This document shows, one piece after another, positions 15,001 to 63,000 of a DNA stretch of 64,000 nucleotides (position 1 is the first letter of the stretch; the number at the start of each line of letters is the position of its first letter). A program made the position numbers. The stretch comes from Octopus vulgaris (Eukaryota): positions 47,306,001 to 47,370,000 of the forward strand of contig OX597824.1 in NCBI GenBank assembly GCA_951406725.2. Direction: 5' to 3'.

Positions 15001-18000
15001 TAAGAATTTGAAATAAAAGGGTGGGAGAGTTAAGCTAAATGAATAATTGAAAGAGAATCTTTTCAGATTATAAAATCGACGGTTGTTTAAGGTAATGACA
15101 TTACAGTTAGAAAAAAAAGGAATTCTTTAGGTGCCAATAATCTACAAAAACAACAGCAAATAGGAGAGTATGACAACAAAGGACAAGGAAAAAAATAAAG
15201 GCAATATATATATATATATATATATATATAATATAAATAAACTTACCCTCCTTGCGCATCAACAAACTCCTCGTCTCCGCTACTCCCCAGCGGGGAATAA
15301 TTCCTCTTCACAGCATTAACTTCTTTCAAACTATCGACTTGGTATTTCAATTCATCGATTTTGATGAGCAAGTTTTCCAAAACTCCAAAAACATGCCTAT
15401 CATTTGTGTATTTCATGAACAGGATAGATCCTCCGGCACCGAGGATGAATCCTACTCCAAGAGCAAGGAAAGTAGCAGAGGAGGCTTTGAATAGCATCAT
15501 CTCCGCTGCGACCAGCAATGGTAAAAGGTGGTAAGGGCACCAGTGGCACGATGTCTACTGCTGTCAACTGGAGTAGCCATGATCAACAGTCCTAAGGCAC
15601 TCTTCATATAACGCATTGTTTCAACAAATCACGCCCCTCCACTCATCCACAACATTATTACTGCTGCTGATATTACAATTACTACACTCTCTATCGTTGT
15701 CACATTAATCACAAAACTGACAATAGCAAACCTTTATCTTACTGTCATTTAATAAACCTGATATATATTTCGAAGGCAGTTTAATTTCCATCGTACTCCA
15801 TGTTTATTTGCGGACGAAAATTTTATCTCTTCTGTTAAAAGATCGTCGAAGAAGCCTCTTTTTAGCAAAGAGTTCCTTGACGTCGAGGAAGATAATTTTT
15901 TTCTATTTGTATGGTAAACCATACGCATTATACCTTATATTTATTTAATGGAAGTAAACAGTTATAAGTTATTCCCTGTATATTGTATGGACAATGATAG
16001 CTATAAATGAGCATTACTATGTGTATTTAAAGTTTGCAGATGTTAACAAAATAGATTTTATTTATCGCCTTAACTATGCTTATTTTATGAAAATGACAGC
16101 CAGCAGACAAATTACTCAGGGACGTCATATGCATCAAAAATAGAGAGTTAAGTTGATGCTAACGTACTTAATGTAGTGAAGAATTTATTATTATTATTCT
16201 AGTATTACGCTCGTACTGAGGAGAAAATTCTTTCTTTATTTTTTTTTTAATTATTATTTCAAGCCCTCCAAAAAAGTCAAGTGAGATAACTTCGAAATTT
16301 AAATGAATTAAAAGGGGACATGCAATAGAAAGTGAGCCTGATCTTTGGCAAGCATGATGACAATTTCGATCGAGTTTCGGTATTATTTGACACCCTCAGC
16401 AAGTTATAGTTTTCACCAGTACTTGCCAACAACTTAAAAGTATGGGTCCAGAAACACCAGCATGAAAAATAAACAACCAGATCAATGCTGGTATACTTAA
16501 TGTAGTAACACAAAAAAAAATTGTAATCAATTACCTACAAATCTATAATGAGAAGAAAAAGTAACCATAATCTTTGTTATTAATTCTGGTCTAGTAAGTA
16601 CTATATAAGACTGTTTTTCTACACAAACATATGCAAAGTCATTAACATATTTACCAAAGATCAGACTTACACCCTACTTTATATTTTGAACTTGTCTGTG
16701 TTTGTTTTGTTTTTCATTTTATAGTTTTTAACCAGGATAAATCATTAAGATAAATTATCTTTCTCTCTTTCCAACTACTACTACTACTGATACATTTTAA
16801 TTAATTAAAATATATTTTGGTTCACAAAATTAAGTTATATAAACACTGGCTTAACTTTTATGAAGCCAATGACGTCCCTGAGTTATTGTTCTCCCTCAAC
16901 ACCATTATCCTTTCAAGTTGTGTCTCCTATCCATGTTTATTCATTCAAACTCTTTCAGGGTTGGCAATTTGGCATATTTTATGCAAGATCTAGCCTTTTT
17001 TTTTTTTTTTTTTTTCAGCATTTAACTGAAAATTTTTTAATCTAGCATTTAGCAGGGAAAATAGCACGTTTAAAATTTTATTTAGCATTTTTTTAGCATT
17101 TTTCTCTTATGACATTTCCACAATAGTTACCTTTTTTTCCTTCTATTTCCTCCTTTTCTACTTTCGTTGAAGTATCTTACAGCCAAATTGAGTACTATCG
17201 GCTATTGTTGAATTATTCTTTCACTTGAAACTTCAAATGAAAGTTTATCAAAAGGAAGTTTATCAAATTATGAACTTTTCGAGCCCACCCACCCTACCGA
17301 CTTGGATACAGAGTGGTGCTGGTGGGGGAGGGGAAGTAGATAACTCATGTCAGCACTTGAACTCACAACACAATAATGTAAATATGTTGCAAAGAAGGAA
17401 AGCATGGAAATTCGTTCTAACAATGCTTTATTCTGTAGTGATGTACATAATGTGCAAATATTGTGAAAAATGTTCTAGCTCCATATTTTGATGGAGATTT
17501 GATTTCTGATATAGGAGATATAAATTTAGCCTGTTATTAGATGAATGCAATGATATAGCGATAAACAAGTTGTTAGGAATTATTATTATCATATATTATA
17601 GTGACACTCACAAAAAAGTGGTACATACAGATCTCAGTATGGTATCTTTAGAAACATGTGATGCAGATGGCATTGTAGATGCCTTAAAAATTGAATTAGT
17701 GAAAAAGAAATTAGATATAAAAATTTTACTGGCTATAGGAACCGACAATGCTAGAGTAATGAGTCAACAATGGTGTTTTCCAGAAATTAAAGAAATTCCA
17801 TCATTACTTCTATTTGGATGTGTATGCTTACCCATAAATTTAGAATTTTTAGAATCTGAAACCTATAAATGGTCCTCTCATTCTTCAACAAGATAAAGTG
17901 CCTACAAACAACTTTACCTTGCTATCAATGATAAAGAGCCTTTGAAGATCCTGAATTCTTGTACAACTAGGTGGCTGTCAATAGAACCAGCAGTACATAA

Positions 18001-60000: not shown

Positions 60001-63000
60001 ACCTTGAAGTTTTTATTTGTGCTTGTACATAAGAAAGGGCAGAGTAAACAGATATGTGACTTTCCCCACTGTTAATAACACAGCTATTAAGCAGTACTGC
60101 TAATGATTACTCTTTTACTCTTTTACTTGTTTCAGTCATATGACTGCGGCCATGCTGGAGTATCGCCTTTAGTTGAGCAAATCGACCCCAGGACTTATTC
60201 TTTGTTAGCCTATCGGTCTCTTTTGCAGAAATGCTAAGTTATAGGGATGTAAACACACCAGCATCGGTTCTCAAGCAATGTTGGGTGGACAAACACAGAC
60301 ACAAAAACATATATATATATATATATATATATATATATATATATATATATATATATATATATATATATACATACACATATATATGCATATATATATATAT
60401 ATATATACACATGTATATGCATATATATATATATATATATACACACGATGGGCTTCTTTCAGTTTCCGTCTACCAAATCCACTCACAAAGTTTTGGTCAG
60501 CCCAAGGCTACAGTAGAAGACACTTGCCCAAGGTGCCACACAGTGGGAATGAACCCAGAACCATGTGGCTGGTAAGCAAGCTACTTACCACACAGCCACT
60601 GCTGTGCCTATGTTAAGCAAAAATACAGAAATAGCTATTAGTCTTAGTCAGGAAAGAAACAGCTGGCTGCAGTAAAATTTGGTCTCATATCTTTGTGTTA
60701 TAACTAATCGAATCTGCTTATTATTTCTATCAGTATATGTAAAGTGTTCACCTGACTGATAATGTTTCTGCAACACTGTTTGATCTACATAGGTTCAATG
60801 CCTAGATTACAGTGTTCATATTAAAAAATGGTACAAGACTAGTATAGCTTTTCAACATTCAGTAACATATTGACAGTCATTCAGTTATTTTGGCCTCATT
60901 GATAATGTACATTTCTTTATGACTGACACATGTTCAGTTCTAGAAAGTTTCTATGTAGTTGCTTAATCTGAAATAGTAGCCAAGTCTCCTTCCAATCACT
61001 GTCTTAAAAAAGGAAAGGCACATTAGAGCTTATCTGAAGAATGATAGGATGGCCATGAAATGGAATGTTTTTGATCAAAGGTTTGTTTGATCATCGCTGA
61101 ACTGGATCTGAACAAGAACTAATTTCTTATTTACAAACTGGATAAGTTACTCAATAGTTTTAATTTGATTGTCAAGGTCTAATTTTTCTCAAATCGTTTT
61201 GATTAGGTGATAAGCCTTTTAAAGGCTAAATATTAGTTATGAGAGAAGCAAAGCATCTTGAGTTAGTTTCAGTGTTTGGCAGCAAATTGAAACCAATTTC
61301 CCTCACTTAAACTGCCAATACACTTGAAAATGCCGAACTTGTTTTGTTTATAAATTTTTGCTCTTACCTTTAAGAAATGAATATTTTGAAGCAAAATCTC
61401 GGGATTTTTCTCAAGAACATTCATCAGATATTTCTCTAGTAATTTGTACACTTTAAAGGTGTAATTTCTTTTACTAAAAAACTTAGGACTAGTAGTAATC
61501 CAGTTCTAGATTTAATGGGGATTAAAGCGCTATGTTTATTAGTTAAATTTTATGATTTATGATTAAGTACTTTTTCAACTAAGTGGCCTTGAAGTATAAC
61601 TGACAGTATTTATGGCCACTAGTAATATAAAACAGGCTTGGAAAATAAATATGATGAAAGTGTACCTTCAAAAGGTATAAGAGAAATTTAACCCTTTGGA
61701 GATGGAGCCTCATTTGGAGTTTCAGTGCCAAGAGGACAGAGCCCGTTTCACAAGACCTACAAAGGACATACACTTATTTTTTCAAAAATATTGTAAAAAA
61801 ATAAAGCACCTGCTTTGCATATATAAAACTACATATATTCTTGTAGGAAATTGAATGAACAATCTTCTTTTGTCGTTCAATTTTTCAGCTGATAGATCAG
61901 CCCTGTCATCTCCAAGGGTTAAGGAGAGTTGTAACTGATGAAATTATATGGTTTATAATGATGTCATTGAACAAAGATTAAACCCTTTAGCATTCAGATT
62001 ATCTATCAAATGTAATGTTTATTTATTCACATTGTTTTCAATTAATCATGCTTTATCTCATAGCCTTGAGATTTCAATGATGTGATCATTTATGTTTAGA
62101 ATTACATTTTAGGGTAGGTGTGAGAAGCCTGATCAAACCAGTTTGAACATAAAACAGGTAGAAATATTGGATCAGTTATGGCCGGCTTAAATGCTAAAAG
62201 GTTAAAAGTATTATGACTTTAGTGAAGTCATTATTTTACTTTTTACTTCATTTTTGTATCTTGTTTGCAAGATTTTTTATGTGAATTCATGTATTAAAAA
62301 AATTTTTCTTGTGTCTAGGGAGGGTCTTGTTTCACAAGTACAATGTTCCAGCACACAAGTCCTTGATTTCAATGGCTGCTGTGCATGACTGACTTTGAAC
62401 TACTCGATCATGAACTATTCTCATGATTTGGTCCCATCTGACTACCATCTTTTCCCCAACATGAAAAACCATTTGGTTGGGAACCTGTATCTCACTGATG
62501 ATGATGTAATATCTGTTGTTGATGACTTGTTTGAGCAACAGGATGAAACAGGATCCAAGGACTGCAACACTGATGGAAAAAGTGTGTGGACCACAAAGGG
62601 GACTATGTTGGAAAATTAATCTCATTTGGTGACATTCCATGAGAGTGCCTTAGCCAGCCTATGAACTTTTCAGCTGACACTCTGTATATGCAAATTATTT
62701 TGGAAGGGTAATTTACTTTCCTTGATTTAAGGCTATGAAACAGTCCTGTGCAAAATATTTCTGACTTTTAAGTTTATATCTTTCAGGAAAATGGACCAAC
62801 AATGGTTGGAGATGAATGGAATGATGTGGAGTTGATGGAATATCTTGGAGCTAGTCTATGCAAAGAGCTTGGCACTAACTAGTAAGTAATCAGTTTATAT
62901 TTATTTTAAGAAGCTATATTTCACGATCGTATTCTAAGAACCATGAGAAGTGTTTCTTGCAATCAGACTTGTAAGTTTACAGGTGAAATGAAAATTGTGT

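What the first reader, a model, noticed from the sequence alone, without database searches (positions are those of the whole stretch)
15247..62881. Head-to-head RMDN-like/GCHFR pair: possible mollusc-vertebrate ancient microsynteny
Seen: a TM-coiled coil-FFAT first exon on the minus strand and GCHFR on the plus strand, start codons ~18.7 kb apart, with no recognisable host gene between them. Known: human RMDN3 and GCHFR are adjacent and divergently transcribed at 15q15. Inference: the linkage may date to the bilaterian ancestor and has survived both the heavy rearrangement of coleoid genomes and heavy local TE insertion. That would point to a shared regulatory constraint between an ER-mitochondria tether and the BH4-synthesis regulator.
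Basis: partly seen in the sequence, partly recalled or inferred. Interest (0 to 1): 0.7.

Follow-up and report, generated by a model that had tools for sequence, protein, structure and literature searches.

The report
Octopus RMDN and GCHFR neighbour genes
Two ordinary octopus genes, one for a mitochondrial tether protein and one for a regulator of a cofactor pathway, sit back to back as they do in land vertebrates; this is probably an old neighbourhood that survived, with no sign that the genes need each other.

Summary
The window is Octopus bimaculoides DNA. On the minus strand, 15247-15500 is the first coding exon of the annotated RMDN gene: 85 of 85 residues match XP_014772191.1, whose RMD1-3 domain lies outside the window. 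On the plus strand, 34178-34213 and 62787-62881 are GCHFR exons 1 and 2, identical to XP_014772206.1; exon 2 alone passes the Pfam GFRP cut-off. The start codons are 18,678 bp apart, and I found no other gene between them.

The two genes are also neighbours in Argonauta hians (consecutive accessions) and sit within three accession numbers in O. vulgaris. A paper gives the order FAM82A2(RMDN3)-GCHFR in eight tetrapods.

The deep-conservation reading is only partly supported. In the limpet Patella caerulea the genes share a chromosome but lie 669 locus tags apart. In zebrafish and stickleback they are on different chromosomes. No eukaryotic genome collection was available, so bivalves, annelids, amphioxus, echinoderms and cnidarians stayed unchecked.

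Each gene has its own CpG-preserved patch at its 5' end, separated by 17 kb of CpG-depleted DNA that holds a transposon relic. This argues against a shared promoter.

Most likely this is a passively retained ancestral adjacency, one more candidate among roughly 600 known conserved microsyntenic pairs. Interest is modest.

The parts
1..15246 (-). Start of RMDN intron 1, at least 15.2 kb; no further RMDN exon lies in the window
   Evidence: A GTAAGT donor follows 15247. tblastn with P0001 and P0134 finds only residues 1-85 in the window. 150 minus-strand frames of 28 aa or more gave no RMD1-3 or TPR hit.
15247..15500 (-). RMDN first coding exon (85 codons): hydrophobic anchor, short heptad region, acidic tract plus FFAT-like core
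   Evidence: 100% identity to P0001 and P0134 residues 1-85. Hydropathy is 2.08 over residues 11-29. The layout is shared with Argonauta, two unnamed cephalopod-like proteins and two Patella proteins.
14801..16400 (.). CpG-preserved patch around the RMDN 5' end; inferred RMDN promoter region
   Evidence: CpG observed/expected is 0.84 here, against 0.32 for the window and 0.23 for the spacer. The promoter role is inferred, not shown.
15501..34177 (.). Intergenic spacer between the two start codons, 18,677 bp, with no detectable gene
   Evidence: 145 frames of 45 aa or more gave nothing above Pfam cut-offs. No Rfam match and no tRNA. An (AC)n array lies at 33274-33354.
17510..19003 (+). Decayed hAT-type transposase relic: one frame broken by two stop codons
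   Evidence: Three abutting frames in one phase. No Pfam hit. Language-model neighbours carry FAM200-GTF2IRD2-like (54% of members) and hAT dimerisation (50%) domains, with scores of 0.92-0.97. This is a lead, not an alignment.
33801..34800 (.). CpG-preserved patch around the GCHFR 5' end; inferred GCHFR promoter region
   Evidence: CpG observed/expected is 1.04. The promoter role is inferred.
34178..34213 (+). GCHFR coding exon 1 (12 codons)
   Evidence: ATG followed by a GTGAGT donor. 100% identical to P0031 residues 1-12.
34214..62786 (+). GCHFR intron 1, 28,573 bp, rich in mobile-element remains
   Evidence: Donor and acceptor sites seen. Contents: a (TA)n array at 34855-35321, a hAT ORF, a mariner piece and repeated segments.
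42542..44701 (-). Uninterrupted 719-codon hAT-type transposase frame inside the GCHFR intron
   Evidence: Pfam DUF4371 at E=8.8e-21 (75.3 bits) and Dimer_Tnp_hAT at E=4.5e-10 (39.6 bits), both above cut-off.
52378..52872 (+). Mariner-type transposase fragment
   Evidence: Pfam PF01359 Transposase_1 at E=3.5e-27, 94.5 bits.
62787..62881 (+). GCHFR coding exon 2 (31 codons plus 2 bases)
   Evidence: Pfam GFRP at E=1.2e-9, 38.2 bits. 100% identical to P0031 residues 13-43. Splice sites seen. Exon 3 is not in 62882-64000.

Best explanation
The window holds the 5' ends of two ordinary, already annotated Octopus bimaculoides genes. One is the membrane-anchored RMDN gene, the RMDN2/3-type mitochondrial tether with a VAP-binding FFAT-like motif. 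The other is GCHFR, the feedback regulator of GTP cyclohydrolase I. They are transcribed away from each other across an 18.7 kb spacer with no detectable gene, which holds at least one transposon relic.

The neighbourhood is most likely an ancestral adjacency that has simply not been broken in octopods or in tetrapods, while it was broken in limpets and teleosts. It would then be one more conserved ancestral microsyntenic pair, kept passively or under weak constraint.

Each gene most likely runs from its own promoter next to its own start codon.

Shown: the gene identities, the layout, the adjacency in other octopods, the non-adjacency in Patella, and the published vertebrate gene order. Inferred: the ancestral origin of the adjacency, the separate promoters, and the absence of functional coupling.
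For: Identities:
- Exon 1 equals P0001 residues 1-85.
- P0001 carries PF21033 at E=3.8e-37.
- P0001 matches the solved RMDN3 TPR domain 7cc7_A at E=9.4e-37.
- GCHFR exon 2 passes the Pfam GFRP cut-off on its own.

Type of RMDN. Language-model neighbours are RMDN3-like (0.99), chordate RMDN3 (0.96) and RMDN2 (0.96), ahead of RMDN1 (0.91). [quoted passage not shown] The anchor-coil-motif layout is shared with Patella.

Octopods:
- A. hians RMDN is GAB1609730.1 and GCHFR is GAB1609729.1, consecutive accessions on one 14,743,775-base contig.
- O. vulgaris has CAI9730165.1 and CAI9730167.1/168.1 on one 99,980,488-base contig.
- O. sinensis has both genes on one 77,502,973-base contig.

Vertebrates. 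The order FAM82A2-GCHFR-DNAJC17 holds in 8 tetrapods, and goat agrees.

Chance. For one named pair, immediate adjacency by chance is about 2 divided by the number of genes on the chromosome. That is a fraction of a percent. This is my estimate, not a computed result.

Separate promoters. CpG observed/expected is 0.84 and 1.04 at the two 5' ends and 0.23 in the 17.4 kb between them.
Against: In Patella caerulea the genes are SNE40_010999 and SNE40_010330. They sit on the same 80,400,781-base chromosome but 669 locus tags and 824 accession numbers apart. The adjacency is therefore absent in the only non-cephalopod protostome I could test. That fits independent juxtaposition as well as loss.

Only two animal lineages show the pair. 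Irimia et al. asked for four or more of eleven lineages (PMC3514665, passages).

Reading locus tags as positions is an assumption.

No RMDN phylogeny was built, so orthology to RMDN3 rather than RMDN1 rests on domain layout and on language-model neighbours, not on a tree.

Transcription start sites are not known. Untranslated first exons could bring them closer together than the start codons.
Confidence: 0.6

Rival explanations
1. Coincidence or convergence. The two genes belong to the same ancestral linkage group and came to lie side by side independently, once in the octopod or coleoid lineage during its large-scale genome reshuffling and once in the vertebrate lineage.
For: Patella caerulea has both genes on one chromosome but 669 locus tags apart. 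This is what a shared linkage group without ancestral adjacency would look like. Coleoid genomes gained many new microsyntenies (PMC9023564, passages). The finding comes from a scan of many windows, so a few chance coincidences with human gene order are expected genome-wide (my estimate). Searching the three readable supplementary tables of PMC9023564 for GCHFR, RMDN, 'GTP cyclohydrolase' and 'microtubule dynamics' found nothing. All blocks in the one part I read (1 of 230) had three or more genes, so a two-gene pair may not be listed.
Against: For a named pair, chance adjacency is well under 1%, and lower still with the same orientation (my estimate; the human orientation is recalled). [quoted passage not shown] Loss of adjacency in single lineages such as limpets is common among accepted ancestral pairs.
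Confidence: 0.22
2. The pair has been held together since the bilaterian ancestor by selection, because the two genes share regulatory DNA or must be co-expressed, linking an ER-mitochondria tether to the regulator of BH4 synthesis.
For: The pair survives in octopods despite the coleoid genome reorganisation, with no gene inserted in 18.7 kb. Divergent 5'-5' orientation is the class most enriched and best conserved among ancestral pairs (PMC3514665, passages). Conserved metazoan microsyntenies in cephalopods show co-expression as a class (PMC9023564, passages).
Against: The genes are on different chromosomes in zebrafish and stickleback and 669 loci apart in Patella, with both genes kept. So the linkage is dispensable in those lineages. 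There are two separate CpG-preserved patches with a CpG-depleted spacer carrying a transposon relic between them. The 18,678 bp between start codons is far above the under-1 kb of the bidirectional promoter example in PMC3514665. No functional link between the two proteins turned up in the six papers that name both (listing only for four of them).
Confidence: 0.15

Closest known systems
Conserved ancestral microsyntenic pairs (CAMPs) of Irimia et al. 2012, PMC3514665
   Same: Two unrelated genes that are immediate neighbours in 5'-5' orientation in distant animal phyla. That orientation is the commonest among the 595 pairs described (passages).
   Different: Here the pair is shown in two lineages only (tetrapods and octopods) and is absent in the limpet and in two teleosts. 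The published criterion was four or more of eleven lineages.
Vertebrate RAD51-(CYP1C1)-FAM82A2/RMDN3-GCHFR-DNAJC17 block, PMC3229566
   Same: The same two gene families are immediate neighbours. The order is reported as conserved in eight tetrapods (passages).
   Different: The octopus flanks lie outside the window, so it is unknown whether RAD51, a CYP1 gene or DNAJC17 are nearby. The octopus RMDN is named RMDN1 or RMDN2-like by different annotators. It probably predates the RMDN2/RMDN3 split that the paper links to vertebrate genome duplication.
Bidirectional-promoter pairs such as HSPE1-HSPD1
   Same: Divergent orientation that is conserved over long times.
   Different: Those pairs have under 1 kb between the genes and a shared promoter (PMC3514665, passages). 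Here 18,678 bp separate the start codons, and each gene has its own CpG-preserved patch.
Human RMDN3/PTPIP51, the outer-mitochondrial-membrane partner of VAPB
   Same: An N-terminal hydrophobic anchor, then a coil, then a FFAT-like motif, then the RMD1-3 TPR domain. The octopus domain matches chain 7cc7_A at E=9.4e-37.
   Different: The octopus protein is 354-372 aa, against about 468 aa for the chordate RMDN3 cluster. Its motif core EFVDAQG is closer to the canonical EFFDA-E than the human VYFTASS quoted in PMC3261905. VAP binding was not tested.

Membership tests
GFRP / GCHFR (Pfam PF06399) | Sequence match to the GFRP profile above the curated cut-off | tested here: met
   The exon 2 frame alone scores 38.2 bits against a cut-off of 25, E=1.2e-9, profile positions 9-42 of 83. 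The NCBI protein P0031, whose residues 1-43 equal the two window exons, scores 127.5 bits over profile positions 1-82 of 83.
GFRP / GCHFR (Pfam PF06399) | Binds GTP cyclohydrolase I and mediates feedback regulation | not testable with these tools
   This is a biochemical property. It is inferred only from family membership.
RMDN / RMD1-3 (Pfam PF21033) | RMD1-3 TPR-like domain | tested here: met
   The domain is not in the window itself. The window exon is 100% identical to residues 1-85 of P0001, which carries PF21033 at residues 142-364 with 128.2 bits against a cut-off of 26.7. P0001 also matches RMDN3 chain 7cc7_A.
RMDN3-type tether (anchor plus FFAT-like motif) | N-terminal membrane anchor followed by an acidic tract and a FFAT-like core | tested here: met
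   Hydropathy is 2.08 over residues 11-29. The core EFVDAQG follows D-E-E. The layout is conserved in 6 of 6 aligned molluscan proteins. These are sequence features only.
RMDN3-type tether (anchor plus FFAT-like motif) | Orthology to vertebrate RMDN2/3 rather than RMDN1, shown by a tree | not tested
The only lead is the language-model neighbours: RMDN3-like 0.99, RMDN3 0.96, RMDN2 0.96, RMDN1 0.91.
RMDN3-type tether (anchor plus FFAT-like motif) | Binding to VAP on the ER | not testable with these tools
   No octopus VAP sequence was fetched and no complex job was sent.
Conserved ancestral microsyntenic pair (Irimia et al. 2012) | Linked, with four or fewer genes between, in four or more of eleven major metazoan lineages | tested here: inconclusive
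   Present in octopod molluscs and tetrapods. Absent in Patella caerulea (669 locus tags apart), zebrafish and stickleback. All other lineages are unchecked, because no eukaryotic genome collection was on hand.
Bidirectional-promoter gene pair | Start sites within about 1 kb, sharing one promoter | tested here: not met
   The start codons are 18,678 bp apart. There are two separate CpG-preserved patches (0.84 and 1.04) with 17.4 kb at 0.23 between them. Transcription start sites themselves are unknown.

The most novel reading that the evidence does not exclude
RMDN-GCHFR is a bilaterian-age head-to-head pair actively kept together in cephalopods and tetrapods by shared distal regulatory DNA. 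This would couple the mitochondria-ER tether to control of BH4 supply (and so of monoamine and nitric oxide synthesis) in the same cells. The spacer would be a regulatory landscape rather than junk, and the limpet and teleost breaks would be tolerated exceptions.
Probability: 0.12. Interest if true: 0.55.

Novelty: new member of a known kind. Interest (0 to 1): 0.3.

Why it matters
If the adjacency proves ancestral, it adds one more pair to the catalogue of gene neighbourhoods that survived over 500 million years, including the coleoid genome reshuffling. Such pairs help anchor ancestral gene-order reconstructions.

It would matter more only if the two genes turned out to share regulation. The evidence here points the other way. 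Both genes and their adjacency in the octopus are already in the public annotation, so the practical gain is small.

Tried and rejected
1. Further RMDN exons left of the exon. 150 minus-strand frames of 28 aa or more in 1-15307 gave no RMD1-3 or TPR hit. I dropped 6 of the 156 frames listed to fit the 150-item limit. One of them, 15246-15554, was covered as 15246-15500. tblastn with the full proteins found nothing beyond residues 1-85.

2. GCHFR exon 3. It is not in 62882-64000.

3. A broad RMDN search. The search for homologous proteins with P0001 returned only 5 proteins, so RMDN positions are known for only a few species.

4. The exon 2 peptide (31 aa) was too short for the search for homologous proteins. 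The representative library, which accepts 30 aa, gave 9 hits. Three full-length hits seeded the GCHFR search, which found 283 proteins, 120 of them listed.

5. Supplements. Those of Irimia 2012 were closed. The three readable tables of PMC9023564 held no GCHFR or RMDN terms. Its four PDF supplements cannot be read here.

6. The octopus genome paper under the id I tried is not held.

7. The relic at 17.5-19.0 kb shows no BLASTP similarity to the 719-aa hAT frame and no NCBIfam hit. Its hAT nature rests only.

8. Within-window self-BLAST covers 12% of the spacer. It cannot measure transposon load, so 'heavy TE insertion' is only partly verified.

9. A search for papers on RMDN family evolution found one paper holding three of the four terms, a human mitochondrial proteome map (listing only) that is not about family evolution.

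Searches were exon by exon, and full-length comparisons used the public protein records.

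
Full report
**What is in the window**

The window has no N and is 34% G+C.

On the minus strand an open frame starts at the ATG at 15500 and ends at 15247, followed directly by GTAAGT. Its 85 residues are 100% identical, over their whole length, to the start of P0001. NCBI calls that protein 'regulator of microtubule dynamics protein 1 isoform X1 [Octopus bimaculoides]' (372 aa, XP_014772191.1). So the window is O. bimaculoides DNA and the exon is the first coding exon of an annotated RMDN gene.

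- P0001 carries the Pfam RMD1-3 domain at residues 142-364 (E=3.8e-37).
- Those residues match the solved RMDN3 domain 7cc7_A at E=9.4e-37.
- None of that domain is in the window. tblastn with P0001 and P0134 finds only residues 1-85.
- 150 minus-strand frames in 1-15307 gave no relevant Pfam hit.
- Intron 1 is therefore longer than 15.2 kb.

**The exon's features**

- Residues 11-29 have a mean Kyte-Doolittle hydropathy of 2.08, which fits a membrane anchor.
- The following stretch has a modest heptad pattern, with 7 of 10 a/d positions hydrophobic.
- The exon ends with S-S-G-D-E-E and then the core EFVDAQG. This shares E1, F2, D4 and A5 with the canonical EFFDA-E quoted by Mikitova and Levine (PMC3261905, passages).

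[quoted passage not shown] The same anchor-coil-acidic-motif layout appears in all 6 aligned molluscan proteins, including two from Patella. VAP binding is inferred.

**GCHFR**

- The ATG at 34178 opens 12 codons that end at 34213, before GTGAGT.
- After a 28,573-bp intron, exon 2 runs 62787-62881 between AG and GTAAGT.
- The exon 2 frame alone passes the Pfam GFRP cut-off (38.2 bits against 25, E=1.2e-9).
- Both exons are identical to residues 1-12 and 13-43 of P0031, the NCBI protein XP_014772206.1. P0031 scores 127.5 bits on the GFRP profile.
- Exon 3 lies beyond the window.

Searches were exon by exon, and full-length comparisons used the public records.

**The space between the genes**

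The start codons are 18,678 bp apart.

- 145 frames of 45 aa or more on both strands in 15560-34170 gave nothing above a Pfam cut-off.
- Rfam and tRNA scans of the whole window found nothing.
- A frame at 17510-19003, broken by two stops, looks like a hAT-type relic. Its language-model neighbours carry FAM200-GTF2IRD2-like and hAT dimerisation domains. It has no Pfam, NCBIfam or BLASTP support.
- The GCHFR intron holds an unbroken 719-codon hAT transposase frame and a mariner fragment.

'No recognisable host gene between them' stands. 'Heavy TE insertion' is plausible but only partly measured.

**Promoters**

CpG observed/expected values:

| Region | Coordinates | CpG o/e |
|---|---|---|
| RMDN 5' end | 14801-16400 | 0.84 |
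| Spacer | 16401-33800 (17.4 kb) | 0.23 |
| GCHFR 5' end | 33801-34800 | 1.04 |
| Whole window | 1-64000 | 0.32 |

I read this as two separate promoter patches rather than one shared promoter. This is an inference from composition.

**How old is the adjacency?**

Within octopods it is conserved:

- Argonauta hians has RMDN and GCHFR under consecutive accessions (GAB1609730.1 and GAB1609729.1) on one 14.7-Mb contig.
- O. vulgaris has CAI9730165.1 and CAI9730167.1/168.1 on one contig.
- O. sinensis has both genes on one 77.5-Mb contig.

In vertebrates, PMC3229566 (passages) reports the order RAD51-CYP1C1-FAM82A2-GCHFR-DNAJC17 in Xenopus tropicalis, anole, chicken and mallard. [quoted passage not shown] Goat agrees. 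FAM82A2 is RMDN3. That the human genes point away from each other is my recall.

**Evidence against deep conservation or constraint**

- In Patella caerulea, RMDN is SNE40_010999 and GCHFR is SNE40_010330. They lie on the same 80.4-Mb chromosome but 669 locus tags and 824 accession numbers apart. If locus tags follow position, as is usual, the pair is syntenic but not adjacent in this gastropod.
- In zebrafish and stickleback, RAD51-FAM82A2 and CYP1C-GCHFR-DNAJC17 lie on different chromosomes. I read this as reciprocal loss after the teleost genome duplication, which is an inference.

Both results show that the genes work when separated.

**What could not be checked**

- No eukaryotic genome collection was on hand.
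- Bivalves, chitons, annelids, brachiopods, amphioxus, echinoderms, hemichordates, cnidarians, Nautilus and squids are therefore untested. GCHFR proteins from many of them are listed.
- The supplement of Irimia et al. 2012, which lists the 595 known pairs, was closed.
- The readable tables of PMC9023564 hold no GCHFR or RMDN terms. The blocks in the part I read all had three or more genes.
- Searches for GCHFR with 'microsynteny' found no paper. The six papers naming both GCHFR and RMDN3 are association or expression studies.

**Weighing**

For a named pair, chance adjacency on a shared chromosome is a fraction of a percent. Irimia et al. argue that independent linkage of unrelated genes is very unlikely. 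Against that, the finding comes from a scan of many windows, only two lineages show the pair, and Patella lacks it.

My estimates:

| Reading | Probability |
|---|---|
| Passive or weakly constrained ancestral retention | about 0.6 |
| Coincidence or convergence | about 0.22 |
| Actively maintained regulatory pair | about 0.15 |

**Verdict**

The cross-phylum parallel is real for octopods and tetrapods. The proposed regulatory coupling is unsupported. This is a candidate new member of a well-known class, of modest interest.

Noticed in passing
window 42542-44701 (-): An unbroken 719-codon frame with DUF4371 and hAT dimerisation domains lies inside GCHFR intron 1. It could be a recently active hAT element or a domesticated transposase gene. 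I did not look for terminal inverted repeats.
   Followed up: partly
window 25001-27000: A third small CpG-preserved patch sits in the middle of the CpG-depleted spacer. CpG observed/expected is 0.52-0.73 per kb and 1.09 at 26401-27000. Frames there have no Pfam hit. It could be a young insertion, an unannotated start site or a regulatory element.
   Followed up: no
window 48750-51083: A G+C-rich block (up to 63% G+C, against a window mean of 34%) is made of internally repeated units with long open frames on both strands and no Pfam hit. It looks like a tandemly structured repeat or satellite inside the GCHFR intron.
   Followed up: no
window 39801-40164, 41322-41498, 58753-59051, 60387-60612: A short repeated element has several copies within the window. 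Its copies give similar peptide strings in the frames listed. It is probably a SINE-like family, but it was not classified.
   Followed up: no
P0001 versus P0134; O. bimaculoides RMDN isoforms: Isoform X1 differs from X2 by an extra 18 residues right after the window exon. This implies a small alternative exon in intron 1, outside the window. tblastn did not find it in 1-15246.
   Followed up: partly
annotator names: The same orthologue is named RMDN1 in O. bimaculoides and O. sinensis, 'microtubule dynamics 2-like' in O. vulgaris and RMDN2 in Patella vulgata. Language-model neighbours put it nearest RMDN3-like proteins. The public naming is inconsistent.
   Followed up: partly
P0016, Physella acuta: One snail GCHFR record (177 aa) carries a transposase zinc-ribbon domain (PF13842) in front of the GFRP domain. 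It is either a gene-model fusion with a mobile element or a real chimera.
   Followed up: no
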